Assembly: GCF_004010195.1 (NCBI RefSeq)
Contig: NC_057718.1
Coordinates: 4,086,958-4,148,957 of the forward strand
Direction: 5' to 3'
DNA from: Chiloscyllium plagiosum
Taxonomy: Eukaryota
Length of the DNA: 62,000 nucleotides
Shown here: piece after piece, positions 20,524-55,547 of the stretch
Layout of the letters: each line of letters starts with the position of its first letter
How positions within the stretch are numbered: the stretch's first letter is position 1
The notes under the pieces: model-generated
Database searches by the model: none
What the model was told of the DNA's origin: nothing
Seen by the model: the letters and a program-made list of their open reading frames with translations, nothing else
Program-made: the position numbers and the translations under genes

Positions 20524-20543
20524 TGTAAATACATGTTGACTAC

Positions 20544-22026: not shown

Positions 22027-22299
22027 CTAAAACAGCTGGATGACTTCTCAACCTGCAATTGAGATTATTTCTCTCCAAATGTACTCGTCTCCCACATGCT
22101 AATGACTGACCTGTGCTGCTCAGTGTCAAATCTCACACTGTACTTACCCATTGAATCATAGAAACTCTAAGTGAGATTTCAGTTTGAGAACAAAAGAAAA
22201 GTGATGACAAAATACCCAACTCATACACTTCTGTCTGACCCGTGAATCAATCTCCAAAACACAATGAAAACGAAAAGCCAGTCCTGGACATTTACTTAC

Positions 22300-22351
22300 C
22301 CACTACGAGACAAAGGGTCAGAGTCAGGGTTGAGAATGTCCAGCCAAACAT
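22300..22351 (-). CDS. Gene A leader exon CDS (52 nt, phase 1): signal peptide MFGWTFSTLTLTLCLVV
   Basis: ttgaaATG start, hydrophobic 17 codons, consensus donor G|gtaagt; clear paralog at 54385-54436. Confidence 0.8.
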
Positions 22352-22444
22352 TTCAAGTGAAGCTATGTTTCAAATTCTAAAGTCTAACTGTTTCACACGC
22401 AGAATGCTGTGACACTGCTGATATTGCAGAGGTGGCTGAATTTG

Positions 22445-22545
22445 ACTCTACTTCCCTACTCAGTTGTCACGGCTTGAACACAAACCGCAAAAAGAGGAAT
22501 GCATGCGTAATTGGGACTGTCCTCAGAAAACAAGTCACCAATCAG
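22445..22545 (-). promoter_or_regulatory. Candidate proximal promoter of gene A with RUNX, PU.1/ETS and CCAAT motifs
   Basis: aaaccgca directly next to aaagaggaa (22482-22499), acttccct (22450-22457), ccaatca (22538-22544); motif match only. Confidence 0.4.
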
Positions 22546-22832
22546 TGTCAAAGCAATGAAATGAATTTGTACTGATCATACCCAAATGCCTTTCATTTGA
22601 ATTCAGGGACCCACGCTATTGTCAAAATTCATAGGCTCTGTGTTAGCTTTAGTCTGGGCTCTGACAGATTACACAAAGAGGGATCCAGGTTATAAGTGAT
22701 TAGAAAGTTGTTTATTAGTCTGTGAGAAAGTAACAGCTCAAGCATATATCAAAGGTAAATGAGCAGGAGAGGTTGTTCCACCTGGGTCAGGTGAGTATGG
22801 GTTAACTGGGTGGGCACACACACTGCTGTATG

Positions 22833-23172
22833 GGCAGGGGTGGTGATGGCCTCATGGTATTATCGCTGGACTGTTAATCCAGATAGCCAGGTCATGTTCT
22901 GGGGACCCAGGTTCGAATCCTGCTTTGGCAGGTGTTTGAATTTGAATTCAACAAAAATCTGGAATTAAGAGTCTAATAATGACAATGAATTCAATTGTTG
23001 GGAAAAACCCATCCGGTTCACTAATGTCCTTCAGGAGAGGAAACTACCATCCTTACCTGTTCTGGTCTATATGTGACTCCAGACCCACAGTAATGTGGTT
23101 AACTCTTAGGGATAGACAATAAATACGGGCCTTGCCAGTGATGTCCTCATCCCATGAATGAATCAAAAAAAA
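22833..23172 (+). mobile_element. tRNA-derived SINE (second family) whose tail matches the L2/CR1-group LINE
   Basis: A box-like tggcctcatggt, B box ggttcgaatcc, tail caataaatac...catcccatgaatgaatcaaaaaaa. Confidence 0.8.
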
Positions 23173-23354
23173 GTCTGGAGATCCCTGGCAGTGCAGCAGT
23201 CTGCTCTCTCACAGTGAATGTTACAAAGCCTTCTCTCCCAACCCAATCCTCCATCTTCCAACAACTGTTTTTGGGCAGATTCAGCCCAATGACAAGGATT
23301 CAGCCCTCCAATCCCCAAGCACCTGCTAATGTACAAATATCCAAAGGACAGTAC

Positions 23355-25985
23355 GGATTAAGATCAGGAGTAGGCCATTCAGCCCATTGAGCCTGTTCTG
23401 TCATTCCACACAGATCGTGGATGATCTGATTCTCCACATTCCCACCCATCCGTGATAACTGTTTAAGAAACATCTATTCATCTCTGTTTTAAAAATATCC
23501 AAGAACTTTGCTTCCATCACCTTTTGCAGGAAGAGTTCTAAAAATGTTTGACTCTCTGTGAGACTGGTTTTTTTTCCTCACCTCTGTCATAAACACGCAC
23601 TCTCTTATTTTTAAACTCTGTCCCCTAGTTCTAGATTCTCCTACAACAAGAGGAAACATCCTTTCCACATCCACCCGATAAATTCCCCTCAGGATTGTCA
23701 TGCTTCAATTAACTCACCCCGCACTCTTCCAAACTCCCAGCAGATACAAAAATTGGATGAAGAACTATGGATGCTGGAAATAGAGTCATAAAATCATAGA
23801 GACATACAGCATAGAAACAGGCCCTTCAGCCCATCATGTCTATGCTGACCAACAAACTACACTAATCCCATTTACCTTCAACTGGTACATTGCCAACTGT
23901 GCCCTGGCATTTAAAGTCCATCCAGCAGCTTCTTCAATGTTATGAGAGTACTTTCCTCCACCTCATCTCAGGCAGTACCTTCCATTTTTCTACTACCCTC
24001 TGAGGGAGAAAGGTTTTTCCTCTAAACCACTTACTCCTCACCTTAAACCTATGCCCTGTGGTGTTAAACACATCTGCCATGGAGAAAAGACTCTCACAAT
24101 CCACTCAGTCTATACATCTCATAATACTGTAGACCTCAATCAGATCCCCCTCACCCCCTCTGTTCCAGGGAAAGTGAACCCAGCCTATCTCGTGTCTCCT
24201 CATAACTGAGACTTTGCATCCAAGGCAACGTCCTGGTGAATCTCCTCTGCACCCTCTTCAGTGCAATCATAACCTTCTGTTAGCGTGGTGACCAGAACTG
24301 TGCACAATGTTCTATCTGTGGGTGAACCAATATTTTATAAAGTTCCACAAGTATTCCCTGTTCCTATATTCTACACCCTGGCTAATGAAGGTAAACATCC
24401 CATATGCCTTCTTCCCCTTCCTGTCTACCTGTGCTGACACCTTCAGGGATGTGTGGACTTGTCCCTCAGTGCTCCCTAGGGACAAACCATTCCTTGTGCA
24501 TATACCTCCCTTATACCTTCCAAAGTGCATCACATCACACTTATCAGGGTTAAATTTCTTCTGTTATTGCTCTGCCCAATTTACCAGCTGATCAATATCA
24601 GACTGTAGACTGAAACCATCCTCACTATCAACAGCTCCACCGATTTTCATCTCATCTGCAAAATAATGAATTATACTTCCTCTATTCACATTCAAGTCAT
24701 TAATGTACAGAGCGAACAGCAATTATCCAACACTAACCCCTCAGGTACACCACTAATCACAAAAACAACCTCCACCATTCCCATTGCCTCTTACATGTAA
24801 GCCGGTTTTGGATCCAGTTTGCCAACTTGCCTTGTATTTCATTGGATCTTACATTTTGGGCCAGCCTTGCATGTGGGACCTTGTCACAGGCCTTGCTGAA
24901 GTCCATGTAAACCACATCAATTTTTTTTTATTCATCTATGGGATGTGGATGTTGCTGGCTGGACCAGCATTGACAGCCCAACCCTAGTTGCCCTTGAGAA
25001 GATGGTGGTGAGCTGCCTTCTTGAACTGCTGCAGTCCACTTGCTCTGGGTTCACCCACAATGCCATTCCTGGGGAAATTCCAGGATTTTGACCCAGCAAT
25101 AGTGAAGGAACCGTGATATGTTTCCAAGTCAGGATGGTGAGTGGCTTGGAGGGGAACTTGCAGCGAGTGGTGTTCCCATGTATCTGTTGCTCTTCGTCCT
25201 TCAGGATGGCAGTGGTCGTGGGCTTGGAAGGTGCTGTCTGAGGATTTTTGGTTAATTTCTGCAGTGCATCTTGTAAATAGTACATACTACTGCTACTGAG
25301 CACTGGCGGTGGAGGGAGTGGGTGTTTGTCAGTACAGTATTAATCAAGCGGCTGCTTTGTTCTGCATCATGTCAAGCTTTTTCAGTGTTGTTAGAGTGGA
25401 GCCCATTCAGGCAAGTGGGAATATTCCACCACACTCCTTGTAAGGGTGAACAGGCTTTGGAAATTCTGCAGATGAGTTACTCTCCACAGTATTCCCAGTC
25501 TCTGACTTGCTTTTCTTGCTAAAACCTGCACAACCCTCATCAATATATTTAGTCATCCTTTCAAAATTCTCAATTAAATTAGTCAGACAGGATCTCCCTC
25601 TAACAAATCAGAGCTGACTATCCCTAACCTACCCCTGCCTTTCCATATAATAATTAATCCTTAAAAATCACACAACACCAGGTTATAGTCCAGCAGGTTT
25701 AATTGGAAGCACACTAGCTTTTGGAGCGTCGCTCCTTCATCAGGTAATAGTCCACCTACCACCCGATGAAGGAGCAACGCTCTGAAAGCTAGTGTGCTTC
25801 CAATTAAACCTGTTGGACTATAACCTGGTGTTGTGTGATTTTTAACTTTGTACACCCCAGTCCAACATCGGCATCTCCAAATCTTAATTAATCCTGTCCT
25901 TCAGAACTTTTTCTGATAATTTCCCGACCATTGACACCAGACTGACAGATTTATAATTACCTGTCCTATCCCTGCTGCCCTTCTT
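23355..25985 (-). mobile_element. Stack of CR1 fragments with a nested L2/CR1-group LINE 3' part (about 24920-25500)
   Basis: MHFGR...KKAYGMFTFISQG; GNYKSVSLVSMVGKLSEK; LINE tail at 24920-25060 antisense. Confidence 0.8.
25661..25884. mobile_element. 185-bp palindromic Penelope-type insert with a hammerhead-like core in each arm
   Basis: 25661-25845 near-perfect inverted repeat; taattaatcct duplicated at 25651-25661 and 25885-25895. Confidence 0.85.
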
Positions 25986-26404
25986 GATTTTGATTTTTGA
26001 TTTTGATTTTATTGTCACGTATATTTTACAGTAAAAATACAAATACAGTGAAAAGGTTCCATTTGCTACCACAAAATGGCACCGCTGGAATAATTTAAGA
26101 ATATGGAAAAACAAAGATAAAACTGGAAGAGAGTCCATCAACCCTGAGCCAGATCATCACTCACAATGAGCTCTGCACTGTCACTCCTCCACCACCACTT
26201 CAGTGCCAACTATCCTGGACTCAACAAACAACAAAGTCGCCGATCCTCAAGCACCATCTTTTACCGTTGGGCATACCTTGCCGAAATCACTTCTGATGAT
26301 GTAGCAGCCATTGATTCCAAGTCCCAGAAAAGCAAAAACAGCTAATTCTCCCCGCACTATGCCCGAATCGAGATCTGTGCTGAGCCTGCTCAAGGTCTGT
26401 GGTA

Positions 26405-27390
26405 AGTCTGCCCGAGATCCACACCCTGGGCCTGCCTGAGATCCACACCCTGGGCCTGCCCGAGGTTCACACCCTGAGCCTGCACGATGGTTCACACCCT
26501 GGGTCTGCCTGAGATCCACACCCTGGGCCTGCCCGAGGTTTACACCCTGAGCCTGCCTGAGGTTCACATCCTGGGCCTGCCCGAGATCCACACCCTGGGT
26601 CTGCCCGAGATCCACACCCTGAGCCTGCCTGAGGTTCACACCCTGAGCCTGCCTGAGGTCCACACCCTGGGCCTGCCCGAGGTCCACACCCTGAGCCTGC
26701 CTAAGGCCCCCACCCTGAGCCTGCCTGAGATCCACACCCTGAGCCTGCCTGAGATCCATGCCCTGGGCCTGCCCGAGATCCACACCCTGGACCTGCCCGA
26801 GGTCCACAACCTGAGCCTGCCTGAGGTTCCCACCCTGGGCCTGCCTGAGATCTACACCCTGGGCCTGCCCGAGATCCACACCCTGAGTCTGCCTGAGATC
26901 CACACCCTGGACCTGCCCGAGATCCACACCCTGGGCTTGCCCGAGGTCCACACCCTAAGCCTGCCTGAGGGACACACCCTGGGCCTGCCTGAAGTCCACA
27001 CCCTGGGCCTGCCAGAGATCCACACCCTGGGCTTGCCCAAGGTCCGTGTTTTGCCTGCTTGAGGGACTCACCCTGGGCCTGGCGGAGATCCACACCTTAG
27101 GCCAGCCTGAGGTCCACACACCCTAGGCCTGCCTGAGGCTCACACCCTGAGCTTGCCCAAGGTCCGTGTTTTGCCTGCCTGAGGGACACACCCTGGGCCT
27201 GCTCGAGATCCACACCCTAGGCCTGCCCGAGGCTCACATTCTGGGCCTGCCCAATGTCCGTGTTTTGTCTGCCTGAAGTCCACACCCTGAGCCTCCCCGA
27301 CGTCCATGCCAAGCCTCCCCAGTGTCCACACCCTGGCTTGCCCATGATCTCCCCCTTGACCTGTCCAAAGTCCACACCCTGGGCCTGGTT
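26405..27390. repeat. 24-bp GC-rich minisatellite (cctgcccgagatccacaccctggg), degenerating rightward
   Basis: Directly visible; produces the 8-aa repeats in ORFs 26247-26951 and 26487-27062. Confidence 0.95.
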
Positions 27391-27431
27391 CAAGACCTCT
27401 CGAGGTCAGCACGTTGGGCTCTCGCCATCAA

Positions 27432-28050
27432 CAAAATGAATACAGTTCAGGGAAAGTTCACTAGGATGGTCCCTGGTTTAGAGGGACTGTCTTATGAGCA
27501 AAGGCTAAAAGGGGTGGGATTCTATTCATGGGGACTGAGAAGGATGAGAGATTATCTCATTGAAACATATGGGATTCTTAAAGGGTTGACCGGGTAAATA
27601 CTGTGAGGATGTTTCGCCTCAGGGGATAGTCTAGTACCAGACAGCATCACCTCAGAATAAAGATGTAGCATTTTAAGACTGAGATGAGAAGGAATTTCTT
27701 CTCTCAGAGGATGGTGAGTCTTTGGAACTTCTTGCCATAGAGAGCTGTGGGGGCAGAGTCTTTGTGCATATTTAAAGCTGAGATAGAACAATGGTAGATC
27801 ATTAGGCAAATCAAGGATGATGGGAAAGGGCAAGGAAGTGGACATTAGGAATGTCAGATTCTGGATCAGTGGTGCTGGAAGAGCACAGCAATTCAGGCAG
27901 CATCCGAGGACAGGCAAAATCGACGTTTCGGGCAAAAGCCCTTCATCAGGAATCGGAATTTTTACCCCATTAGGAATGTCAGATCAGCCACGATCCTGTT
28001 GAATTGCAGAGGAGAATTGAGGGACAAATTGCGGTTGTCTTATGTTATTC
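27432..28050 (+). mobile_element. CR1 3' fragment with a Penelope/hammerhead insert (27860-27967)
   Basis: FTRMVPGLEGLSYEQRL; insert flanked by 17-bp duplication cattaggaatgtcagat (27843-27859, 27968-27984). Confidence 0.85.
27922..27949 (-). ncRNA. Minimal hammerhead ribozyme-like core, canonical boxes
   Basis: CUGAUGA-a-gggc(uuuu)gccc-GAAAC-GUC; helix III reduced to palindromic ACGU; helix I pairing weak. Confidence 0.6.
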
Positions 28051-28357
28051 TAGAGAAAGTCACAGTCAAGACAGGAAATGTTTATGTGAAAGAGGAGAGT
28101 TTGTGGAAGAAATAATTGGCCAGCTTTACATATCACATAGAATATATTTCTGTTCCTGCTGGAAATGTTTTTAGGAAGCTGAAAAAGAGGAAATCAGTTT
28201 TAAATAAGACTATGATGGTTTATTTTTAGTTTGAATATTTTAATAGAATCTTTTTTTGAGTTCATTGACATACACACTTTTAACTTTCCAATCACAGTGT
28301 TGTCTGTGGTGCAGAATGCTGCTGGTTGTCTGTTCTCAGTCGGGCTGTGCATTGAAA

Positions 28358-31300
28358 ACATAAGGACCATCACACATAGAAGCAGTGGTCGGCCATATAA
28401 CCCACCAAGTCTGCTCCACCATTCAGTGAGATCGTGGCTGATCTGATAATCCTCAGCTCCACTTTCCTGCCTTTTCCCCATAACCCTTGATTCCTTTATT
28501 GATTAAAAATCTGTCCGTCTCAGCCTTGAATATACTGAATGACCCACCATTGACAGCCCTCTGTGGTAAAGAATTCCATAGACTCAACTCCTTTCTGAAG
28601 GAAGAAATTCCTCCTCATTGCTATCTTAAATATCTGCCCCTACAGACTGAAGTAATATCCTTTGGTCCTAGACTCTCCCACAGGGGGAACCAACCTCACC
28701 GCATTGACCCTGTCAAGTCCCTAAAGACTTGTATGTTTTAATAAGGTCACCTCTCATTCTTCTAAATTCCAACAAGTACAAGCCCAATATGTTCAACCTC
28801 TCCTCATCAGTCAATCCCTCCATAGCTAACATCAGCCTGGTGCATGTTCACTGCACTGCCTCCAATGCCAATATATCATTCCTTAGTTAAGAGTCGAAAT
28901 TGGTCACAGTATTCCAGCAGTGATCTGATCAGTGCCTTGTACAGTTTTCGCAGCACCTCCCCCTCTTCATGCTCCATTCCTTTTGAAAAAAAAGCCAACT
29001 TAACATTCCATTTCCCTTCCCTGTTACCCACAAAACCTGCTCGCATTTTGTGATTTCAGGAGAATAATTAAGGAAGACACTTAAAAAATGAGATCAATCT
29101 AGTTCCAGATAGCCCAAAGGAAAGGGAAGTACAAGAACAATGAGTTTTTGTCAAGTTCCTCCTTTCACATATTTATTTACTGAATTCAGTTGCAAAAGAA
29201 AAATGTGATGTTGTGAAGTGAACACACAATGGTTGCCTTCTCCCTGACTCCTGACAACACCAGTCTCTACCTCAATCCCTGTGCAGCTGAAACCTTCATC
29301 AGAACTTTTGTTACTTTCTGATACAACTTTGGAATCATACAGTACAGACGAGGCCCTTCAGCCAATCAGGTCTGCACTGTCAAAACTCAGCTAACTCTAC
29401 TCTAGTCCCATTTCCCAGCACTAGACCCTCAATGTTATGATACTTCAAATGCTCATCCGAATACTTTTTAAACATTGACAGGTTTTGCCCTTCAACCACA
29501 CTCCCAGACAGTGCATTCTAGACCCCACACCACTCTCTAGTTAAAGGAAAAATATTTCTTCAACGATGTCCGATGCTCCCCTGGCCACTCCCTGAAAAAG
29601 CAGGAGGAATGTTAACATTGTAGCTACAGCAAGCAATAAGGAAAGGAAATGGCTTTTACTGTACGTGGTTTAGAGTACAAGTGAACAGAACTCAACCTCC
29701 AGTTGTACAGCGATATGGCGAGCATACTTTCAGAGTGCTGTGCAGAGTTTTAGCCTCCCTATTATCGAGTCGTAGAGTCAGAAATCCTACAGCACAGAGA
29801 CAGGTCCTTTGGTCCAAACTGGTCCATGCCGACCAAAATGTCTGTCCACTGTAATCTCATTTTCCTGCACTTGGCCCATATCCTTCTAAACATTTCCTAT
29901 CCAGGTATTTGTCCAAATGCCTTTTAAATGTTGTTAATGTACCCACCTCAATCACTTCTGCTGGCAGCTCATTCCATATGCGCACCACCCTCTGTGTAAA
30001 ATGGTTGCCACTCAGGTTCCCTTTTATTCTTTCCCCTCTAACATAAACTGATGCCCTCCAGTCCTCAATCCCCCAACCCTGGGAAAAAGACTGAGTGCAT
30101 TCACTCTATCCATGCCTCTCATGATCTGATGCACTTCTATAAGGTCCTCCCTCAGTCTCCAATGCTCGAAAGAAAAAGTCCTAGCTGGTCCACACTCTTC
30201 CTATGACTCAGATCATTGAGCCCTGGCAACATTCTTGTAAATTTCTTCTGCGCTCTTTCTAGTTTAGTAACGTCCTTCCTATAACAAGGTGACTAAAACT
30301 GAACACAACACTCCAAGTGCGGCCTCACCAATGTCCTATATAACTGCAACAGGACTTTCCAACTTCTAATCTCACTGCCCTGACTGATGAAGGTCAGTGT
30401 GCCAACAGCCTCCTTCACTGCCCTATCTACCTGTGACTCCACTTTCAGAGAGCCGTGCACCTGAACTCCAAGGTCCCTGTGTTCCACTAACCTCCTTAAG
30501 GCTCTTCCATTCAGTATGAATCTCCAACCTTGATTTGACTCTCCAAAATGCAAGACCTCACACTTATCTATATTAAACCCTATTTGCCATTTCTCAGCCC
30601 ACTTCCCCAACTGATCAAGGTTTTGCTGCAATTTCTGATAACCTTCCTCACTATCCATGATACTGCCTATTTGTGTCATCAGCAAACTTACTAATAATGC
30701 CTCCTACATTCTCATCCAGATCATTGATACAGATAACAAATAATAACGAGCCCAGCACCGATGCCTGAGGCACTCCACTAGTCACAGGCCTCCAGTCTGA
30801 CAAGCATCCTTCCATTATTTCCCTCTGGTTCCTACCCTCAGGCTAATTTTGTATCCAATTTGCCAGCTCACCCTGGATTCCATGCAATCTAACCTTCCAG
30901 AGCAGCCTATCATGTGGAACTTTATCAAAGGACTTACTGAAATCCACATAGACTATGTCTACCACCCTGTCCTCATCAACCTTCCTAATCACTTCATCAA
31001 AGAACTCCAACAAATTTGTGAGGTATGATCTCCCACTCACAAAGCCACGCTAACTACTCCTAATCAAATCCTGTCTCTCTAAATGCATATATATCTTTTC
31101 TCTCAGAATCTTACCCACCACAGATGTTAGGCTTACTGGTGTATAGTTCCCAGGCTTTTCTTTGTAGCCCTTTGTGAGTAATGGCACAACATTCATAACC
31201 CTCTAGTCTTCCAAAACCTCGCCTTGGTTAACGATGTTACAAAAATATCAGCCAGGGACCTGCAATTCTTCTCTAGCTTCTTGAAGTGTTCTTGGATATA

Positions 31301-37070: not shown

Positions 37071-37249
37071 GTTCTCTGGGGATATGGGATGTGTCACCTC
37101 ATTGATGCGGCTGTGGGTAGTGAACTGGGGGCTGTGAGACCGGGTGTACGTTCCAGTTTCTAGAAACTTAGGGTCATTGTCACTTTCTCAGCCACTGTCA
37201 CTACCATCTTGCCCTGCCCTGAGATTGAGAGCTTCCCACAGCAATCACG

Positions 37250-39150: not shown

Positions 39151-39154
39151 ACAT

Positions 39155-42463: not shown

Positions 42464-42607
42464 CTGGAGCAACTTTCCTCATTCCTGAAGAAGGGCTAAT
42501 GCCCGAAACGTCGATTCTCCTGTTCCCTAGATGCTGCCTGACCTGCTGCGCTTTTCCAGCAACACATTTCCATCTCTGATCTCCAGCATCTGCAGACCTC
42601 ACTTTCT
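42464..42607 (+). mobile_element. Penelope pLTR mini-insert with hammerhead-like core
   Basis: CTGAAGA-agggc/gccc-GAAACGTC at 42485-42512; catcaagggctg duplicated at 42452 and 42608. Confidence 0.8.
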
Positions 42608-42669
42608 CATCAAGGGCTGAAGGGCCTGTACTGTGCTGTACTGTTTAATGTTCTATGAAATTCCTACTT

Positions 42670-44378: not shown

Positions 44379-45409
44379 TCCAAATGCAACACTTCACACT
44401 GAATTGTTGCAAAAATTCAACAAAGTTCCTCACATAGTGCCTTCCAAATTCACGACCACTTCCGTCTCGAAAGGTAAGGGCAGCAGATACATGTGAAACC
44501 ATCCCCTGCACTTTCCCCTCCAAGTCATTCACCATCCTGACATGGAATATTATCACAGTCCCTTCAATGTTGCTGGCTCAAAATCCTGGAATTCCCTCCC
44601 TAAGGGCATTGTGGATCAACCCACACCACATGGACTACAATGGTTTAAGAAGGCAGCTTACCCCCACCTTCTCAATGGTCAGCTAGGGCTGGGCAAAATA
44701 AATGCTAGCCTAGCCAGTAACGTCCATGTCCAACCATTGAATAAAAAACGTAAGGGTTTATGGAGACAATGAATGTAAAAAACATTGAAGTGCTTGATCA
44801 GCCATGATTGAATTACATGGTGGGACAGGCTCAATGGGCTGAATGGCCCTACTCCTGTTCCTATGGAGCAAGAATTTAACTTACAATTATTTCGGTAGAG
44901 GTGAAGTTTTCAGTTGTTTAATTTAAAGATGTTCATATAACTGGCAAAGAAAGTAATCTTTATTGACAGTACATATGAAGGACAGTGAGTGCTGTGTTCC
45001 CCATGGGTTTGTGTCGAATGTGGTTATTGTTTGTTTAAGGGCAACATGCTGGGGATTTAGTCACTTGGATGGCTAGTTTGCAATGTCGAGTGATGCCAAC
45101 AGTGTGGATTCAATTCCTGAGCTAGCTTGAGGTCACCATGGAGGCCCTGTCTTTGCTCATGGGGAACCCTCAAACAGAAATACAACCAATTAACCCTCTA
45201 TAATGAGACAGAAGGGTTCTAGCAACTTTACCTTAAATTCAATATGTTACTACTGTCAATGTGAAATCAGGTCTACATTAGTGTAGATGGGATAATGCAA
45301 CTACCTCTTTCATTGTTCTTTGGGAGGTGTGCTTTGCGTTTGTGATTTATACATATTTGAATATTATTTATTTTCACTTCTCCACATAGGCAGTACAGTG
45401 CAAGGAACT

Positions 45410-45708
45410 CAGGCTTAATTCCAGCCTCAGGGGCTGTCTGTGTGGTACTTGCACATTCTCCTCATGTCTGCGTGGTTTTCCTCCAGGTGTTGTGGTTTCC
45501 TCCTACATTCCAAAGATGTGCAGGGTAGGTAGATTGGCCAAGCTAAATTGCCCAAGGTGTTCAGGGATGTGCAGACTAGGTGGATTAGCCATGGGAAATG
45601 AAGGGTTACAGGGATAGGGGTGTTGGTCTGGGTGGGATGCTCTTTGGAGGATTGGTGTGGACTTGATGAGCCAAATGGCATGCTTCCACGCTGTAGGGAT
45701 TATATGAT
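45410..45708 (+). mobile_element. HE1-type SINE, 5'-truncated
   Basis: Matches 37250-37608. Confidence 0.85.
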
Positions 45709-48029
45709 AACATGAATTGGATTCATAGCACTGTACAAAGCTACATTTTATGATGCAATTAATGTGATCATTGATTTAAAATGACATTCTCACTGAGATA
45801 AAATGGGTAAAAGCCAGTCTTCAGTATTTGAATAATTGCCAAGAAATGAGTCACTCATTGCAGAATAGACACAAGAGGAACCAGAACAGTGTGCCTACTG
45901 GGTGAGAGCCAACTACCTGAGTTAATTACAGATGCTTATACACAGGTAAGCTTCATCAATTTAACACTCAGAGCTACTGGAATAAGAGGAAAGATTCACA
46001 AGGACCTTATCCTGGTTTTGTAACTTGACAAGGATCTTTACTGAATAAAAAGAACAGCTTGTTTGGCTTTGTTACAAAAATAAAGACATATTTCTGAAAG
46101 TTAAAATGAAATGAGAATGGGATAGACACAGATTACAGCCATTCATAGAATGATATAGTACTGGAAGGGCCCTTCAACCTATCAAATCTGTATCACCAAA
46201 GACTATGTCTCCACTAGTCCCACTTTCCTGTACTAGGCTCATAGCTTCAAATGTTATGACATTTCAAGTGCTCATCCAAGTTATTTTTAAAGGTTATGAG
46301 GATTCCCACCTTAACTACACTCCCAGGCAGAATATTCCAGAAACAACTCCCCCCCCGCCCCCCAAGAAAAAAGCTTCTGGGAGCAAAATACTCCCTCACA
46401 TCCCCTCTAAACCTCCTGCCTTTCACTTTGAAATGCCCCTCCCTGACTGCATGTAGATTGAGGAACTTCAGGACTTCCTCTTAAAAGAAAGGATTTCATG
46501 ATATTTATTTAAATACCTCCTTCATTTGTTGTTGGATTCAAAAATGTGTTAAGTTTAATGTCAAATTATCATGTTACGACTATTTTCAGGTGGATCTATA
46601 GACAACGTTCTTTATTAAGTGAAGATTTTACTGATTATTTACTTCAATATCGATTTGTTATTATAAAAAGGAATTGGCTAAGTTTCATTACCCAATTCTC
46701 GACATATTGTAATCACTAAATGAGTGTAATATTGGATTTATTCTTAGAATAAAGATTTTTAAGCAATTATTAGAAAGTTGTAGTCTCATATTTAGCTCTT
46801 CAAAGACCCAACAATCAAATCAAAATGAGTAGGGGAAGATTTCTACCAGAGTCCATTTGATACCCAATCAGCAGTGTCCTTTCGTCCAGCCTTAATGTTG
46901 GTTTCCCCATGGATTGGTATTCTTATGAAGTGTCCTGAAAGAGAAAGATAGATATCTGTGACAAATTTTATCTTTTGCAACATAATCTAATATTCTAAAA
47001 TGATGGAAGTCATTTCAAATCTGTTTCTCTCTCCACAGATGCTGCCAGATCTGCTGAGCTTCTTTAGCATTCTCTGCATTTGTTTCAGATTTCTGGCATT
47101 TGCTGTATTTTGCCTTTAATCTATCCTCAGATAATATTGTTACTTTGAAAACTCCTACAAGTACGGTTCTTTTATTATAGTAGCAGTGACTGAGTTTCTT
47201 TAATGATCTGAAATCTCTCCTTCTTAAGGTTTCAGTCAAACAATAAAGATGGGTTTTCCCATGCAGGTGTGGGGTTATAGCTCCCAGAAGTAATATGGTT
47301 AATGTGAGGAATATGGTTCCTAGAGGAGATACAGATACAGGGATAGAATAAATAGCAATCTATTGTCACTTATATTAATGAAAATACAGTGAGATTTGTA
47401 GGAGTACCATTTTAATTATAGAAATTATAAAAATAAATAATTGAGACAAAGTTAGGACACATTTCATCTTTTGTTCCCTCCTGGGATGATGGAGTGGCTC
47501 CTGATGCTGCCAAAGCAACGATTTCTGGACCAGACCCTCCACACTGTCACGCTGAAACCAAACTGAAGCCACTGCATCAATATCATAGCCAGGAGGAAGA
47601 AACTGGTCCCACCCAGACACTGATGCTGAAGCCATTACTCAAACTGTACCATTTTGCTTCCTACCCAGAGCCACAACAGCCGTGAGGAACCAAACAGAAG
47701 CATCATGTTGCCACCGCTGAGACTTCTGCACCACCAGAAGGAGGAACGGACCAGACCCAGTCTGACAATGGAGTCTTCGATAAAGCCACGGCCATATGGA
47801 AATGGGGAACAGGCCACTGGATCCACCACATTGCTGCAGCAGGACCTCGCAACAACTTTCCTTCACCGCCACCACAGAAAAGAAGAAAAGATGAACTCTG
47901 ATATAACAGAAAAACGAAGAAACAAAGAAACAAAAAAAAAAGCAGTGAAAATGGCAGCCACCAGGTGAGCGGGAGCTTAAAGGCTCAGAGCCTGAATGCT
48001 GCTGCCGCTATCTTGATATGTTTCCTACA

Positions 48030-48700
48030 GGAGGGAATTTATACACAAAACACAGAAAGCTAGCACACAGGGACAGGAAGGCAAATGGAATGTTGGCACT
48101 TGTTTCAAAGGGGTTGGAGCAGGAGGGAAGTCTTACTGCAACTGTGCAAGGTGCTGGGAGACCATATCTGGTGTACTGGAAGCATTTTGGGTCCCCTCAT
48201 TTAAGAAACAGTATCATTTCATTGGAGGCAATTCAGATCCTAGGGTGAACCCGGGTATGGAAGGATTGTCTTATGAGCAAAGGCTAAACAGATTGGAATT
48301 CTACTCATTGGGGTTTCGAAGAATGGGAGGTGATCTCAAACATACAGAGTTCTTAAGGGGCTTCACTGGATAAACATTGAGAGAATGTTACCCCTCATGG
48401 GAGAGTCTAGGAGCAGAGGGCATAGTTTCAGTAAAAAGGGGCACTAATTTAAAAGTGAAATGAGCAGGAATTTCTTCTCTCAGAGGATTGTGAGTCTCTG
48501 AAACTCCTTATCACAGAGTGGAGACAGAGTGTATGTGTGTCTTTAAAGCTGAGATAGACAGAGGGACTCGATCAGTCGGGGAAATCAAGGATAAGGGGGA
48601 AAGAGTAGAAAAAGTGGACTTGAGAATGTTGGATCAGTCATGATTCTATTGGATGTTGGTTTGAGAGGCTGAATGGCCTACTCCTATTTCTAGAGTCTTA
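48030..48700 (+). mobile_element. CR1 3' fragment
   Basis: RKANGMLALVSKG; tail ggctgaatggcctactcct. Confidence 0.85.
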
Positions 48701-49516
48701 TGGTGGTATAGTTGATGTGGAGGATATGGTCCCTGCAGGAGTTAGGGTTAATGTTTATGGTGGGGGGTTATTTCCTATATGAGAAAGGATTAAAGTGGGG
48801 TACATGGGTTCCTGTAGAAATAGGGTTAATGTGGACAATATGGTTTCTTTAGCAGATAGGATTAATCTTGGGGACATGGTTCCTATATGAGATAGGGTTC
48901 ATATGGGGAATGTGGTTCCTTTACTAGATAGGGTTAATGTGAGTGATGTGGTTCCTGTAGAAAAGGGTTAATGTGGGTATTATGGTTTCTACAGGAATAC
49001 GATTAACCTGGGGGATATCGTTCCTATCAGAATAGGATTAATGTGAGAATATGGTTCCGACACAAGACAGGGTTGATGTGAGGAATATGGTTTCTATACA
49101 AGATAGGGTTCATGTGGGGGATGTGACTCCTTAAGGAATAGGATTAATGTGGGAGAGGTATTATGGTTTCTACAGGAATACGATTAACCTGGGGGATATC
49201 GTTCCTATCGGAATAGGATTAATGTGAGAATATGGTTCCGACACAAGACAGGGTTGATCTGAGGAATATGGTTTCTATACAAGATAGGGTTCATGTGGGG
49301 GATGTGACTCCTTAAGGAATAGGATTAATGTGGGAGATATGTTCTTATCGGAATAGGGTTAATGTGGGTGTTATGGTTCCTATAGGAATAAGGCTAATGT
49401 GGGTGTTATGGTTCCTATAGGAATAAGGTTAATGTGGGGAATATAGTTCCTAAAGAAATAGGGTCAATGTGGAAGAAATGGTTCTTATAGTAGATAAAGC
49501 TATTGTGGGGTATATG
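48700..49516. repeat. About 30-bp degenerate minisatellite (gatagggttaatgtggggaatatggttcct...) with a 181-bp higher-order duplication
   Basis: 48976-49156 repeated at 49157-49337 with two mismatches seen; related units at about 47250-47340. Confidence 0.9.
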
Positions 49517-49654
49517 AATGGACAGAGTGTGGAGACCATCTTGCTTCTAGTACTGTGCCTGTAATGCTGAAACTACTCACTGTGGAGCTGAACCTCACCC
49601 CTCAGCAACTCAGTCCCTTCCAGAGAGATGGAGAGAAACAGGAAACATGGTGTT

Positions 49655-52600
49655 TGTGATTGGAATGATGTTGGCCAGGTGAATCTCATCAAATCTGAAT
49701 TCCCTGATTGGGGCTGTTAACCTGGGACAATCAAGGAGTCCTGTCTGACAGATACAAAAGGAGTGTTAGGTGTTCTGGCCACTCGAGGGGAGCTGGCTCT
49801 GAGCTAACAGTATCTGTCTCATGTATTATACATGTGTAAGTAAAGAGTGACTTGGTGAAGGATACCAGCCTTCACGGAATTATTTCAGTGGCAGTGAGAG
49901 AAAAGCATATTCCTGAAGAAATTCACTCACAACAGTTGTTTTTGAGTTGGGGTATGCATTTCTTGCATCATCCAACTCTTTGGGAAGCATGACTCAATCC
50001 TGCTGTCAAAGACTGAGCCCAGCATGTCGAAAGAATATTTTCCGGGCAAATTATATTTGGGCAGATGAAAAGCAATAAGTAATTCTCCTGATAGTGTGTG
50101 GACCTACAGCTTTTTCAGTTATTAGGAGCATACCTTTCCCTGAGGCACCAGATACAAAAATCTTCCAAGAGTTGATGGATTTAGCTAAGGAATATTATGA
50201 CCTGAAGCCTCCTCTCATTCTGAGATGCTAGCAGCTTTACCCAACAGTTCAAAAACCAGGGAAATCCGTACGGGGATTTTTGACAAGGTTAAGATGACTG
50301 GGAGAGGTATGCTACTTTGGTTTGACCCTAAGTGAGACACTGAGAGACTATTTGGTATCTGGGATTAATGACGTAACCATGCAAAAGCACTAACGAGCTG
50401 AATCCCAACTGGATTTTGAAAGGGGAAGAAAACAGTCTTCATGATTAGAAAATGCAGCAAGTGGAGTATGAGTTGTCGGATACGCCAGTGGAAGTTGACA
50501 CCTTTTCCAGTCCGACTGAACTTGGAGAACACCAACTCAGTGAGGGTAATTGCACAGCCTTACTCAGAAGATATCCTGAACAAAACGATTCTAGGTCAGT
50601 CACAGCAAAACCCCAAACCAAAGTCAAGTCTCAGTGAAACGGTTAAAATTTTCTCAATGATCTGGGCTGGCAATCCATTGTAGTTGCTGTTGGTATGCAG
50701 ACTCGAGGCAGCAAACATGTCCCAGCAAATTGAGTAAGAGAATACATCGCCCAGTATCCGGGAGAGTGCACATTCTGGAAAGTACACCCACATCTGTTTG
50801 GAACAGTTGTATTGTTTAGCAACATTCAAATTAGAACCAATCAAAATAAACATCTCGTTAAATGGTCACCCAGTACCAAAATTCCCCCCAACACTAAAGT
50901 TTGCAATAAAACCTCAGCCAGGCTGAGAAACTATCCCGGGCGACCATTACAGATTAAGGCTACAACTTTGGTTCCGGTCTCTTATGAGAAGCAGCTGGTT
51001 CAGTTCTCACATTGTACTGAAAGGCTCGGGCCCAAGCTTGATGGGGTGAAATTGGTTGAGAAAGACTCAACCAGATTGGCTCAATATTTTTTTATTAGAA
51101 AATGGTAGCCTGAGGGAAGTCATACATTTCTCAGGGAGGTTTAGGGACTCTCAAAGAAGCTAATGTCACCTCACATGTTCCATGATCCTACAAGGCCCAC
51201 CCAATGCCATTTGCTGAATGTACAGAAGTGGAGGCTGGAAAATGAAGGAATCATCAAACCAGTTTATGGAATAGATGGAATCGCTCATATTGATCGTGAA
51301 GCCTGACGAGTCAGTTTACCTTTGTGAGGATTTCAGCCAAACAGTGAATTGTTTTCACAGCTGGATAAATAACTGATTCCTTTCTCAGAGGACTTATACA
51401 CGAACCTGGTGGGGGAGCTGTCCTTCACAAAGCTACACATGAGCTATGTGTACATGCAATTGCAATGAGATGAGGATTCCCAGAGATATGCTACAATTAA
51501 CACCCATAAGGGTTTGTACCAACAAACAAGACTGCTTTCTGAGGTATCATCAGCTTGTGTCATTTGACAGCAACCGATGGAGAACATTCCACAAGGTCTA
51601 CCTCAGAATGCCATTTATCTGGACGGCATGCCAATAACAGGCAAGACCAGTAAAGAGCAGTTGGAGAACTTGGAGATAATGCTTAAACATTTCTCAAAAA
51701 CCATGAAAAATGAGTGTTCCAGACAGCCAAAGTGACCTATTGGCCGTGCAGCCCATAGCTTCAGGTCGAATTCAGGGGTAGGCCCTTATTCTCTGCCCAT
51801 ACATTTACAAGTTGTAACATCATCAAGGAGGCCATGTAGCAAATGCAGCTGCCTTGAATCACCTCCCACTGGCAGATAGAACACCAGTGATGCCAGCACT
51901 ACAAGACTCCAGTCTAGTTTTAAACTTACTGGACATGAATCATGTCACCCCTGACAATATCAGACTGTGAGCATGATTGGATCTTGTCCTGACCAAAGTA
52001 AAACATCTGGGGAAACAGAGGGGCCATCATAACCAGAATTGAAACCTTTCTGGACCCAGTAAGACCAAATACTTGAAGATACCTGGGGAGTGACAGTGAG
52101 TATCCCAAGCAAAAGTCATTGTCAGATACTGGGTCTAAGGATTTTGGAAATGAAGATGTTGGCAAGATGTTATATCTCGTGGCCAGAATTGGATGCCAAC
52201 ATATCCATGTTGATAAGACAGTGTCCAAAATACCATCAAGGACAAAACGTACTGCCAGCAGCTCCCTCACATTCATGGGACTGGTTGGGTAAACCCTGAA
52301 CACGGTTACACGTTGACCGTGCCAGTCTTTTCACAGGCTCTGTGTTTTGAGTCATTGTGAATGCCCATTCAAAGTGATTGGATGTGCACAGAATTCATTT
52401 GTCAAAACGGGAACAACAATTGAAAAGTTGCCGGTTTCTTGTATAATGCAGACAATGGGCCATCATTTCACAACAGGGAATTTGAGTATTTCCTCATGGC
52501 ATTTGGCATACAAGGACAGTTCCATACCATCCATCGTCCAATGGTCTGGCAGAGAGAGCAGCCCAAACATTGAAGGCAGCCTCAAAGAAACAGCTTACAA

Positions 52601-54180
52601 CTTCACTCAATACCAAACTGTCCCAGTTCCTGCTTGAGTATTGGACCAATGCTCACATAACTAGAGGGACAGCTCCAGCAGAGTTTCCAGTGGGGAGAAG
52701 ACTCCTGAGAAGGAAGGAGATGCTGCATTAGGAGCGTCAATGCTGGACACAAGATTCCTTCAAGTGAGAGAGACAGTTTACTTCAGGGGACAACATTTGG
52801 TGCTGAAATCACAGAAGTGGCCCTGCATGGGTAAGCCACCAGGTTAACACGAGGTCAGAAGAAGCCATGACATACAAAGTCCGGATAAGTGAGGCGGTCT
52901 TGAACAAGCATGTGGACCACATGAAAGCTGCAACCTCACAAACAGAGCAGCAGCAAAACATACCCGGCCTCTCAGAAGATCCGGTACAGCTGTCGGAACC
53001 AGTGGCTTTTCACTCTGCACCTCACGTCAAAGAAATTTCTGACGGTGAGTGGATGGGGCAGACATCACAGCCTCAACATTGTTACCACCTGAAGAAGATG
53101 AGTTTTGGTTGAGATGTTGCGAACGCGAGCATGGGCTATGGTCCAGTACACACCACCACTGTCTGAAGCAGAGAGAGAGAGAGAGAGGAACCAGACCCCT
53201 GGTGTGAAAATGCTACAGGAACGAGAAAGCACCTACATCCCAGGACTTGGAGGGACAGGGATGCAAGGATTGGAATGAGATCAGCCAGGTGGACCTCATA
53301 GGATATGAGTTTCCTGATTGTGTTACAACACAGAGTAAACACTTCTTTGAAAACCCACAGAAAAGCTCACCTCTCCTTGTTATCTCTTAAAGTATGAGTT
53401 AGAAAGAATTGTCCCAAATATCACTAATTTAAAAAAGCTTAACAATTGTATTTTTTAAAGAGAACATTAAACAACAACTGTTTACAACTCACTTCCTCTT
53501 AAACCTATTTTTATCTCACACTCTACAATACTGCTCCGATAAAAATCCCGATTAATATTTCAAAACCAGTCAGCTGTGTCGGTTCTCCTTTGCAGATTTT
53601 CCTCTGTAGACTTTCCTGGGTCATCTTTTATTCAGTCTTCTGCTGCACAAATTTCTTTTGGACAGGTACCTTTCAGAGAGCTATTCTGCTGGCAATCGTT
53701 GGTGCTTAGCTGCTCTGTTGTTCTCCACAGCTGTTCAAAACCCTCAATTTATATACCTCAAAACATCGGACCGGCTCATTGGTTTAATGTCATCCACAAC
53801 AGTCAAATTCAAATTCGATTGGATTTTGGCATCTGGGGAATAATTTAAACGGATCCGTCAGATTTGAATTTGTTGTGTACCACGGCAACGCAGCTATTTG
53901 TTTCACAACCAAAAGTTACAGTGTTGAATTTTTCAGCATATTCTATGCCAGCAAGAAGTTTCAGCTCCCTTAATCTTACAGTACACATCTACAACTTCAC
54001 AAGAGCTGTGGCTGTTAACTTGTCCCAATCAGGAAGCCCTGGCTGACAGATAGTGACAGGAGTGTCAGGGATTCTGCTCACTCTAGGAGCTGGCTCTGAG
54101 CTAGCTGGGTCAGTGTCATGTACTTTGCATGTGTAAGTAAAGAGGGGCTTGGTGATTTATTGAGTTAAGTTGAGTTATTT
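49655..54180 (+). mobile_element. Decayed Gypsy/Ty3 LTR retrotransposon (5' LTR about 49655-49887; 3' LTR about 53262-54180, interrupted)
   Basis: Homologous LTRs; PBS-like tggcagtgag after 5' LTR; gag-like LRDYLVSGIND; RT TINTHKGLYQ and YLD; integrase MKMLARCYISWPELDANI...WDW; purine tract before 3' LTR; many stops and frameshifts. Confidence 0.85.
53321..54004 (-). mobile_element. Solo LTR related to 5576-6278, inserted in the Gypsy 3' LTR
   Basis: Termini tgttacaacacagagtaaac and acttcacaaga resemble the reverse complement of the 5576-6278 termini; Gypsy LTR resumes after it. Confidence 0.7.
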
Positions 54181-54384
54181 TGCACAGCCTCAATGCTTAT
54201 CTGCAATGTGTCAGTACATTTCAAACAAATCTTTTCATTGCTGGTCAGCCCACTTTCTCCTTCCTCTTTCTGTGCTGTACCTTTAGTAAAAAGCTTGAAG
54301 TTCCATGGTACTGAGATCCTGAAACACCAATATTACATCACAGTCTGAGAAAGGATAGCAATTAAAAAAATACATTTATTTGAA

Positions 54385-54436
54385 ATGTTTTTCCTGAATT
54401 TCTCCATCTTATCTCTGATCCTCTCTGTCGCACTGG
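54385..54436 (+). CDS. Gene B leader exon CDS (52 nt, phase 1): signal peptide MFFLNFSILSLILSVAL
   Basis: ttgaaATGTTT start and G|gtaagtaaatg donor identical in context and spacing to gene A leader. Confidence 0.8.
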
Positions 54437-55261
54437 GTAAGTAAATGCTTGGATTTGACTTTGTTTCCATAGACATCTATTTCTGAGTTTGATTTTCTGA
54501 TGGTGAGCTGGTGTTTGAGTCGGTATTTCGTAGTTCAGGATTTCCTCCTGAGAGCTGAAATTGGGCTTTCTCATAGTGCAACCCCAACAGAGTGTCAGAT
54601 GTGACACTGAATGATACTTTCCAGTTTTCCCACTCCCAGACTTCAGCAGCTGTCATTTAAAAATCCCATGCTAAGTCTGCACAAAGTTTCTGACTGAAAC
54701 ACTGCACCTTTAAAGAACCCCAACTTGTAGCAAAGTAAACGAACCTTCAGTATTAGTCCATCAAATAGACTCCTCAATACATGATGTGACTCTGTGATAC
54801 TTTTGTGTGCCTCCTACTTTCACTTAGACAACGGGGGGGGGGGTAAAACTTTTGGGGAATGGGTAGGAACAGTGATGCATTATGGGGAATTGTCAATCAT
54901 CCAAGAGAAATTTTATTTTTGTTGTGGTGGAGGCTATCGAGACCGTACTCGGATGTTTACCCAGTCAGTGTGACCTTGCCCGAGACTCTGAGTCAACAAA
55001 CCAAAAACATCACAAACATGAATAATTCTGACCATTACTGCCTGGGAAACCTGACATCTTCCAGCCAGGCTCATGATCCAATGAGTTTACTGTGAGTTTC
55101 TGGATGGATGGGAATCCAGGATAGCTACGCCACAATCCCTGGTCACTGGCCAACATAATTGAATTCCCACATCCCACTTTGACTGCTGGATCGATCTGGT
55201 GGAGACTAGAATATAAACAAGTATGAACACGCACAAGATTCAGGCTTCATTCCAGTTTCGA

Positions 55262-55460
55262 ACAAAAACAGAAATTGCTGGAGTAACTCAGCATGCCTGG
55301 CAATATCTGAGGAAACGGAAGTTAACATTTTGAGTCCAATCTGATTTTTCACCACACTGAATTCAAAATATCAACTCTTTTCACTATCGGCAAATACTGA
55401 GCCAGACCTGCTGAGATTCTCTGAAACTTGTATTTCAAATTTCCAGCATCTGTCTTCCTT
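55262..55460. mobile_element. Old fold-back Penelope-type pLTR remnant
   Basis: aacagaaattgctggagtaactcagc... and ...gacctgctgagattctct...ccagcatctg; related fragments at 35238-35320 and 47020-47115. Confidence 0.6.
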
Positions 55461-55506
55461 TCCTCTCAAATGATGCTAGTTTGCTGTGTTCTGTGTAATA
55501 TTACAG

Positions 55507-55547
55507 TGCAACATGTTTGTTGCTTCAGGAAGCTGAATGAAGAAATG
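55507..55547 (+). CDS. Gene B candidate exon 2 (41 nt, phase 1-0): (V)QHVCCFRKLNEEM
   Basis: Acceptor tgtaatattacag, donor ATG|gtgata; same phases and VQ start as gene A exon 2; completes a plausible signal-peptide cleavage region. Confidence 0.55.

What the first reader, a model, noticed from the sequence alone, without database searches (positions are those of the whole stretch)
22110..55547. Hidden head-to-head pair of paralogous secreted/membrane protein genes
Seen: two 52-nt leader exons 32 kb apart on opposite strands, both ttgaaATGTTT...TG G|gtaagtaaatg, encoding MFGWTFSTLTLTLCLVV and MFFLNFSILSLILSVAL. Each is followed by a short phase 1-0 exon starting TGCA (Val-Gln), and intron-1 sequence is still alignable. 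Neither leader is in the ORF track. Inference: an inverted duplication created a small gene family whose mature N-termini have diverged strongly (FDEQSRHE vs FRKLNEEM), a pattern common in immune gene clusters.
Basis: partly seen in the sequence, partly recalled or inferred. Interest (0 to 1): 0.8.

Follow-up and report, generated by a model that had tools for sequence, protein, structure and literature searches.

The report
Leader exons of shark immune receptors
The two short look-alike segments are real signal-peptide first exons of two neighbouring, oppositely oriented shark immune-receptor genes whose antibody-like domains lie beyond both ends of the window; one gene is already in public gene models and the other looks decayed, so the finding is correct in outline but ordinary.

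Summary
Both 52-nt ATG...G|GTAAGTAAATG segments exist as described: A at 22351-22300 (-), B at 54385-54436 (+). They are homologous. A profile of six B-type copies finds A at E 2.5e-21, running about 195 nt into intron 1.

A's 18 codons are exactly the N-terminus of RefSeq models XP_043551179 and XP_043551181. In these the leader joins directly to a V-set exon about 26.5 kb downstream, left of the window. These models have four or three V(J)-type Ig domains, a transmembrane segment and an ITIM/ITSM tail.

B belongs to a tandem set of six + strand copies on the same contig. Its 92% paralogue's leader heads XP_043551187, again joined directly to V.

B's own later exons lie 7-22 kb beyond the window's right end and carry three lesions: a SINE inside V1a, two stops in the third V exon, and one stop in the tail. 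B is probably a pseudogene.

Both are single-copy, absent from all paralogues and all models, and would break the V frame.

The family is large: 149 V-exon matches, about 112 of them on this contig between 2.0 and 4.3 Mb. Six full-text searches found no paper describing it.

The parts
22300..22351 (-). Gene A exon 1 coding part: ATG plus 17 codons plus 1 nt (phase 1), signal peptide MFGWTFSTLTLTLCLVV-G
   Evidence: Sequence read and translated. Identical to residues 1-18 of RefSeq models P0045 and P0009. tblastn gives 18 of 19 residues at 22351-22295.
22352..22429 (-). Gene A 5' UTR / proximal promoter stretch that is still alignable to the B-type copies
   Evidence: The nhmmer alignment starts at 22429.
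22106..22299 (-). First ~195 nt of gene A intron 1. GTAAGTAAATG donor, plus a conserved island near 22150-22115.
   Evidence: nhmmer alignment to the B-type profile, E 2.5e-21; MAFFT alignment A1.
1..22105 (-). Rest of the in-window part of gene A intron 1. It holds LINE/SINE debris and a (CA)106 microsatellite and no Ig exon. The next exon (V1) lies about 4.2 kb left of the window.
   Evidence: Pfam on all ORFs of 60 aa or more found only RT-type hits here. V1 is at C9:4082371-4082757(-). TRF.
21995..22026 (-).
   Evidence: Absent from P0045, P0009 and P0043. Single copy, about 50 nt from a high-copy repeat. Its 32 nt would frameshift the V exon.
54184..54384 (+). Gene B proximal promoter / 5' UTR, conserved among the six B-type copies. 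Homology between copies begins at 54184.
   Evidence: blastn of loci, alignment A1, nhmmer. An RNA-run contig piece starts at 54357.
54385..54436 (+). Gene B exon 1 coding part: signal peptide MFFLNFSILSLILSVAL-G, phase 1
   Evidence: The same exon in the 92% paralogue at C9:3.496 Mb gives residues 1-18 of RefSeq model P0037.
54437..55092 (+). Start of gene B intron 1, conserved with the other B-type copies
55093..62000 (+). Further in-window part of gene B intron 1 (TE-rich). The V exons start about 7.3 kb beyond the window's end.
   Evidence: Pfam found no Ig hit here. V-set ORFs are at L009:7544-7936 and L010:2-388.
55507..55547 (+).
   Evidence: Single copy and absent from all 5 paralogues. 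No 54436>55507 joint is among the 15 joints listed, though 408 more were not shown. Its 41 nt would frameshift.
22430..54183 (.). About 32 kb spacer between the two divergent genes. It holds LINE fragments, a 24-nt satellite (26408-27387), a 35-nt tandem array (48778-49488) and an N run (35778-36333). No Ig exon.

Best explanation
The two segments are the first coding exons (signal-peptide leaders, phase 1) of two divergently oriented members of an elasmobranch family of type I membrane receptors. The ectodomains of this family are stacks of three or four single-exon V(J)-type immunoglobulin domains. In each gene the leader is spliced across a very long, transposon-filled intron 1 directly onto the first V exon. 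That intron is about 26.5 kb in A and about 14.8 kb in B.

Gene A is intact and already modelled in RefSeq. It encodes leader, four V-set domains (three in one isoform), an uncharged transmembrane helix and a tail with ITIM/ITSM-type tyrosine motifs. I infer that it acts as an inhibitory receptor that recruits SH2 phosphatases.

Gene B belongs to a tandemly duplicated subgroup. This subgroup has the same leader and V domains but an unrelated transmembrane and tail module (YENV and SVYSDL-type motifs). B keeps an intact promoter-proximal region, leader, V1b and TM exon. It has a SINE inside V1a, two stop codons and a lost cysteine in the third V exon, and a stop in the penultimate tail exon. 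It is most likely a decaying paralogue.

Shown: exon identity, homology, family size and the lesions. Inferred: signalling mode, ligand-recognition role and B's pseudogene status.
For: 1. A's leader equals residues 1-18 of XP_043551179 and XP_043551181, followed at once by QDTW...VLIQS.
2. A's V exons are on the - strand at C9:4082371-4082757, 4069406-4069774, 4065484-4065837 and 4060937-4061296, at 93-99% identity to P0045.
3. B's segment has five + strand copies on C9 at 76-92% identity.
4. The 92% copy's leader, MFFLKFFILSLILSVALG, heads XP_043551187 and runs straight into V.
5. Five of the seven leaders are intact. Two have lost the ATG and/or the GT donor.
6. Downstream of B there are V-set ORFs at E 1e-14, plus TM and tail exons.
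7. Pfam gives four V-set stretches in P0045 and three in P0037.
8. Each V exon ends in a J-like FG.GT.L.V motif, which aligns with antibody J regions.
9. By my count, 26 of the 45 family proteins held begin with MF plus a leader of about 18 aa running into the V domain, and 6 more have a same-length leader. They come from sharks, a sawshark, skates and rays.
10. The tail motifs TVYATV, LYYADI and TEYATI recur across species.
11. P0045 and P0037 align through the ectodomain (52-78%) and stop aligning at the membrane.
12. An RNA-run contig (X7, record 9) covers 54357-54438 and then continues for 25 nt unlike the intron, and X7 has zero depth over the next intron bin. The contig is therefore spliced at this donor. 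Its 3 mismatches equal the B-versus-92%-paralogue difference count.
Against: - No read or contig shown can be assigned to B itself. The one spliced contig most likely comes from the 92% paralogue, and its letters could not be seen.
- The single-cell RNA runs X5 and X6 gave nothing at B's leader. They are polyA single-cell libraries and I guess them to be 3'-biased, so this is no test.
- A's leader-to-V junction rests on predicted RefSeq models and cross-species conservation, not on reads I laid.
- I could not fetch the DNA of A's downstream exons, so their splice sites were not inspected.
- B could still make a product through the AG at the SINE's 3' end, which is in frame, with exon skipping.
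- Signalling function is inferred from motifs only.
Confidence: 0.85

Rival explanations
1. One reading: two small genes for secreted or membrane proteins. In each, the leader splices to a nearby short exon (22026-21995 or 55507-55547), giving diverged mature N-termini.
For: AG acceptors, GT donors and open frames exist at those places. Both segments start with TGCA.
Against: - Neither segment occurs in any paralogue or elsewhere in the genome.
- Neither occurs in any isoform seen.
- Lengths of 32 and 41 nt would put the V exons out of frame.
- B's segment lies outside every block conserved with the paralogues.
- No 54436>55507 joint is among the listed joints. That table was truncated.
Confidence: 0.03
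2. Gene B is still a working gene. It would make a shorter receptor by using the AG at the 3' end of the SINE in V1a (or by skipping V1a), skipping the stop-bearing third V exon, and ending at the premature stop. The product would lack the distal tyrosine motifs.
For: - The leader, its donor, V1b, the TM exon and the first tail exon are intact.
- All V exons are phase 1-1, so skipping keeps the frame.
- The SINE's ...CCCCAG followed by ATACATGG is in frame with the leader.
- The promoter-proximal 200 nt are as conserved as in the intact copies.
Against: - Three independent lesions are specific to B.
- No protein model 100% identical to B's V1a appeared among the 35 hits. The best was 86%.
- No B-specific RNA was seen.
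Confidence: 0.25
3. The likeness of the two leaders is chance or comes from a dispersed repeat, and the segments are not exons.
For: Pairwise blastn alone is weak, at E 0.02. The window is mostly transposon debris.
Against: - The profile E-value is 2.5e-21.
- Only 6 + 1 copies exist, all in one gene cluster.
- The leaders match RefSeq N-termini exactly.
- The leader is conserved across elasmobranch orders.
Confidence: 0.01

Closest known systems
RefSeq gene models of Chiloscyllium plagiosum: XP_043551179/80/81 ('tyrosine-protein phosphatase non-receptor type substrate 1-like' / 'VSIG1-like') and XP_043551186/87 ('polymeric immunoglobulin receptor-like')
   Same: Gene A's leader is residues 1-18 of XP_043551179 and XP_043551181. 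The leader of B's 92% paralogue is residues 1-18 of XP_043551187. In both, the leader runs directly into the V domain.
   Different: No model identical to B's own V exons was among the 35 hits. The names are automatic labels, not tested assignments.
SIRP family (signal-regulatory proteins; SIRP-alpha = SHPS-1)
   Same: Type I membrane protein, N-terminal V-type domain with a J-like strand, cytoplasmic ITIM-type tyrosines, and paired members with different tails. The features of SIRP are from my general knowledge. The motifs here were seen.
   Different: SIRPs have one V domain plus two C1-set domains. Here every ectodomain is V-set (4 or 3 stretches), and no C1-set family appears in the Pfam table at E <= 0.001. 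Orthology was not tested.
NITRs (novel immune-type receptors) of bony fish
   Same: Clustered, diversified multigene family; V domains with a germline-joined J-like motif; mostly ITIM tails. This follows the abstract of PMC2442602 as shown in the listing.
   Different: NITRs have one or two Ig domains and are described from bony fish. A 2019 review lists none for cartilaginous fish (passages of PMC6795676). Here there are 3-4 tandem VJ domains in elasmobranchs. No phylogeny against NITRs was run.
UrIg / UrIg2, the nonrearranging VJ-bearing genes of elasmobranchs
   Same: Single-exon VJ domains retained in sharks (abstract and passages of PMC12227049).
   Different: As I read those passages, UrIg and UrIg2 are antibody-like (V plus C domains, IgG-Fc-like dimers), and 'multigene', 'ITIM' and 'tandem V' do not occur in the text. 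Here the family is multigene, all domains are V, and the products are membrane-bound with tyrosine motifs.

Membership tests
Immunoglobulin V-set domain proteins (Pfam PF07686) | Match above Pfam's gathering score | tested here: met
   P0045 scores 212 bits in 4 stretches and P0037 157 bits in 3 stretches, against a cutoff of 26. B's V1a and V1b ORFs score 55.1 and 54.5 bits. None of these exons lies inside the window.
VJ-type (germline-joined) V domains | V and a J-like FG.GT.L.V strand encoded in one exon, with no recombination-signal gap | tested here: met
   Single open exons end in ...IWGKVFGKGTPLNVTS followed by a GT donor. The motif aligns to antibody FGQGTKL J regions.
Secretory signal peptide (leader exon) | N-terminal hydrophobic core with small residues at -3 and -1 before the mature domain | tested here: inconclusive
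   By eye, the 18-aa hydrophobic leaders end in V-V-G (A) and A-L-G (B) before QDT.... No signal-peptide predictor was available. The leader is conserved in 32 of 45 family proteins by my count.
ITIM/ITSM inhibitory receptors | [ILVST].Y..[ILV] motifs in the cytoplasmic tail and an uncharged transmembrane helix | tested here: met
   A-type tails carry TVYATV, LYYADI and TEYATI, and these recur in other species. The TM stretch WLLMIIIGTTLAFVLLLCIFLIVLLY has no charged residue. Phosphatase binding cannot be tested here.
SIRP family | One V domain followed by two C1-set domains | tested here: not met
   Pfam lists V-set, Ig_3, ig, I-set and Ig_2 only. No C1-set family appears at E <= 0.001.
Polymeric immunoglobulin receptor | Orthology and an Ig-binding first domain | not tested
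   The name comes only from an automatic RefSeq label. All-V architecture is shared. No pIgR-specific feature was examined.
NITR family | Orthology with bony-fish NITR V domains; 1-2 Ig domains | not tested
   The domain number differs, at 3-4. No tree or comparison with NITR sequences was made.

The most novel reading that the evidence does not exclude
The two leaders are the in-window tip of an elasmobranch-wide family that has not been described in print. It is a cluster of more than 2 Mb with over 100 germline-joined VJ exons, assembled three or four per polypeptide into receptors. These share one conserved 18-codon leader but carry alternative tail modules: an ITIM/ITSM tail or a YENV/ITIM-like tail. 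That would make it a cartilaginous-fish counterpart of NITR/KIR/LILR-type diversified innate recognition. It would also be a large new reservoir of nonrearranging VJ domains bearing on how antigen-receptor V genes arose.
Probability: 0.35. Interest if true: 0.6.

Novelty: new member of a known kind. Interest (0 to 1): 0.3.

Why it matters
For the scan, this shows that a raw-sequence reader can pick out 52-nt leader exons correctly. Biologically the pair itself is ordinary: one gene is already modelled and the other is probably decaying. The family behind it has some interest. It consists of receptors built only from tandem nonrearranging VJ domains, expanded to about a hundred exons on one chromosome arm, and conserved from sharks to rays with inhibitory-type tails. 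My six searches found no paper on it. Single-exon VJ genes are actively sought as clues to the origin of antigen receptors (introduction of PMC12227049).

Tried and rejected
- Pfam scan of all 333 stop-to-stop ORFs of 60 aa or more in the window (112 + 112 + 109). It found only reverse transcriptase (7 ORFs), an endonuclease, an integrase fragment and sub-threshold noise. There is no Ig domain in the window.
- Earlier scan notes: nothing near the finding. The one genome-wide hit concerns an unrelated PLAGL1 gene 1.09 Mb away.
- The look-up of sequencing runs: no RNA holder was listed for 21000-23000.
- Read laying on 49600-62000: X6 laid nothing. X5 laid reads only on transposon stretches and nothing in the bins 54154-54981. 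No B-specific RNA was seen. No 54436>55507 joint is among the 15 joints shown, with 408 not shown. I could lay only one stretch, so A's leader and the 22300>22026 junction were not tested with reads.
- A search for the alternative start MDSG of isoform X2 as ATGGAYWSNGGTRAG found 0 matches in the window.
- A search for the alternative leader MICGTLFAV... of XP_043551186 in the 262 kb held found nothing convincing. The best E was 0.54.
These covered A's downstream exons and the 3.51-3.58 Mb paralogues. A's exon positions therefore come only.
- The recurrent '1 TAG' in many V-exon matches disappears when the same loci are aligned over a slightly shorter range. I read it as read-through of the intron's acceptor, not as pseudogenes.
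- Six literature searches and passages of PMC6795676, PMC12227049 and PMC8455134 gave no description of this family. The library is open-access only, and no supplements were read.
Full report
**What is in the sequence.**
- On the - strand, an ATG at 22351 opens 52 nt of coding sequence (22351-22300). It ends ...GTAGTGG and is followed by GTAAGTAAATG.
- On the + strand, an ATG at 54385 opens 52 nt (54385-54436). It ends ...GCACTGG and is followed by the same GTAAGTAAATG.

**Is the likeness more than chance?**
- Pairwise blastn is weak: 75% over 68 nt, E 0.02 in an 11 kb by 12 kb comparison, plus a collinear 20-nt hit 230 nt further on.
- A whole-genome DNA search with B's segment found five further copies. 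All are on the + strand of the same contig, at C9 3.496, 3.532, 4.181, 4.232 and 4.274 Mb, with 76-92% identity. A's segment matched only itself.
- I aligned all seven and built an nhmmer profile from the six B-type rows only. In the window it hits B at E 6.6e-170 and A (22429-22106, - strand) at E 2.5e-21. That match covers about 78 nt upstream of the ATG, the leader, and about 195 nt of intron 1.
- The claim that intron 1 is still alignable therefore holds, and the segment is low-copy, not a dispersed repeat.

**What the genes are.**
- The window holds no recognisable coding exon of 60 aa or more apart from transposon remains. All 333 stop-to-stop ORFs of 60 aa or more were scanned against Pfam, with no Ig domain among them.
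- I fetched 180 kb to the right of the window. Downstream of B there are V-set exons: L009:7544-7936 (55.1 bits), L010:2-388 (54.5 bits) and a partial one at L010:3785-4015.
- A protein search with the first of these returned 35 elasmobranch proteins of 292-594 aa. Four are RefSeq models of Chiloscyllium plagiosum, on a contig of exactly the length of C9.
- P0009 (XP_043551181) and P0045 (XP_043551179) begin MFGWTFSTLTLTLCLVVG and continue directly with QDTWTVLIQS.... tblastn places their residues 1-19 at 22351-22295.
- The same protein maps exon by exon to the - strand at C9:4082371-4082757, 4069406-4069774, 4065484-4065837 and 4060937-4061296, at 93-99% identity.
- The window starts at C9:4086958. 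Gene A's intron 1 is therefore about 26.5 kb long, and its V1 exon lies about 4.2 kb left of the window.
- P0037 (XP_043551187) begins MFFLKFFILSLILSVALG, which is the leader of the 3.496 Mb copy. It also runs straight into QDTRSVLIQS.
- Related species carry both leader types, each followed directly by the V domain. By my count, 26 of the 45 proteins held start with MF plus a leader of about 18 aa. Six more have a same-length leader. They include whale shark, zebra shark, epaulette shark, catshark, smooth-hound, sawshark, skate, sawfish and devil rays.

**Architecture and likely mode of action.**
- Pfam finds four V-set stretches in P0045 and three in P0037, and no C1-set family.
- Each V exon is phase 1-1 and ends in a J-like FG.GT.L.V strand before its GT donor.
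- The closest solved chains by sequence are antibody variable regions (single-chain Fv and diabody constructs and Fab light chains), and the J-like motif aligns with FGQGTKL.
- A-type proteins have an uncharged transmembrane stretch and a tail with TVYATV, LYYADI and TEYATI. These motifs recur in other species.
- B-type proteins align with A-type through the ectodomain at 52-78% but not beyond the membrane. Their tail carries YENV and SVYSDL/SVYSNI.
- My inference from established knowledge of ITIM/ITSM receptors is as follows. The leader directs the nascent chain into the ER. The tandem VJ domains bind ligands. A-type members signal inhibition through SH2 phosphatases, and B-type members signal differently. 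None of the signalling was tested.

**State of gene B.** Positions are in window-extended coordinates.
- The original V1a acceptor is at 69256. Twelve nt into the exon sits a SINE of about 297 nt (69269-69565), flanked by a GATACAT duplication. It is absent from the neighbouring paralogue and repeated many times nearby.
- V1b (72011-72367), the TM exon (81048-81179) and the first tail exon (82576-82656) are open.
- The third V exon (about 75650-75991) has two TAA stops and has serine in place of the conserved cysteine.
- The tail exon at 84327-84365 has an in-frame TAA.
- No model identical to B's V1a was among the 35 hits. The best was 86% identity over 89% of the query.
- I read B as a decaying paralogue with an intact 5' end. 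A shortened product remains possible, because the SINE's terminal AG is in frame with the leader.
- Two of the other five B-type leaders are dead. The 3.532 Mb copy has lost both the ATG and the GT donor. The 4.274 Mb copy has a 1-nt insertion and GT changed to AT.

- The segments 22026-21995 (32 nt) and 55507-55547 (41 nt) are not in any isoform seen.
- Each is single-copy and absent from every paralogue.
- B's segment lies outside all blocks conserved with the paralogues. A's segment sits about 50 nt from a repeat with at least 1962 first-look candidates.
- Both lengths are 2 mod 3, so inserting either between a phase-1 leader and a phase-1 V exon would destroy the frame.
- The 'diverged mature N-termini' are therefore artefacts.

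**RNA evidence.**
- Only one stretch could be laid, and I chose 49600-62000.
- The single-cell runs gave nothing at the leader: X6 laid nothing, and X5 laid reads only on transposons.
- In X7, one 107-nt contig covers 54357-54438 with 3 other letters and has 25 further letters that do not fit the intron. X7's depth over the next intron bin is 0, while the DNA run X1 covers that bin.
- B and the 3.496 Mb copy differ at exactly 3 of these 82 positions. Their next 25 intron letters agree at 24 of 25.
- The contig is thus a spliced transcript ending at this donor, most probably from the paralogue. It supports the exon boundary for this leader type, not B's own expression.
- No 54436>55507 joint is among the 15 shown, and 408 were not shown.

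**Size and novelty of the family.**
- A six-frame search with B's V1a gave 149 matches at E <= 0.001, out of 150 scored from 362 candidates.
- By my hand count 112 are on C9 between 2.02 and 4.26 Mb, on both strands. The rest lie mainly on C25, C44 and C39.
- Six full-text searches and passages read in three papers gave no description of such a family.
- NITRs are described from bony fish (listing abstract of PMC2442602; passages of PMC6795676).
- UrIg and UrIg2 are antibody-like nonrearranging VJ genes of sharks (abstract and passages of PMC12227049).
- The library is open-access only, so this absence is weak evidence.

**Verdict.**
- It is wrong in detail. The genes are not hidden and the family is not small. 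The mature N-termini were misread, and B is probably defunct.
- The pair is an ordinary piece of an annotated receptor cluster. The family as a whole deserves a modest flag.

Noticed in passing
window 26408-27387: A 24-nt satellite of about 41 copies (consensus CTGCCCGAGGTCCACACCCTGGGC) lies in the spacer between the two genes. It produces long fake ORFs on both strands.
   Followed up: partly
window 9060-9383 (-): A transposon-derived ORF inside gene A's intron 1, on the gene's strand, matches 27 of 33 residues of the N-terminus of an epaulette-shark isoform of the same family (P0012, MFGQWLYPRHYT...). This suggests that this repeat has been modelled as, or is used as, an alternative first exon in a relative.
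   Followed up: partly
window 22150-22115 (-) and 54580-54612 (+): An island about 170-200 nt into intron 1 (…AGTGTGAGAT.TGACACTGA…) is better conserved between A and the B-type copies than its surroundings. It may be an intronic regulatory element. It remains unexplained.
   Followed up: no
window 54261-54268 (+) and 22499-22492 (-): TTCCTCTT is invariant in all seven aligned upstream regions, 117-148 nt before the ATGs. Its complement holds GAGGAA, which from memory is a PU.1/ETS-type core. The A part of this alignment lies outside the statistically supported nhmmer match, so this is only a lead.
   Followed up: no
L009:7269-7565 (window-extended 69269-69565): A SINE with a tRNA-like GGAATTGAACCCGGG... 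segment is inserted 12 nt into B's V1a exon, with a GATACAT target duplication. Its 3' end creates an in-frame AG. The same SINE family recurs at window 61823-62120 and many other places.
   Followed up: partly
window 35778-36333: A run of 556 N lies in the spacer. It is either an assembly gap or a withheld stretch, and nothing could be read there.
   Followed up: no
window 20314-20523 and 48778-49488: A (CA)106 microsatellite lies in A's intron 1, and a 35-nt tandem array of about 20 copies lies upstream of B.
   Followed up: no
L012-L016 (C9:4.181-4.229 Mb): The next B-type unit is modelled in RefSeq as XP_043552678 (P0002), with an odd, non-leader N-terminus (MKAPCLNEHF...). Yet an intact leader, MFLQKLFVLFLMLSVAVG, sits at its 5' end. 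The public model probably misses its true first exon.
   Followed up: partly
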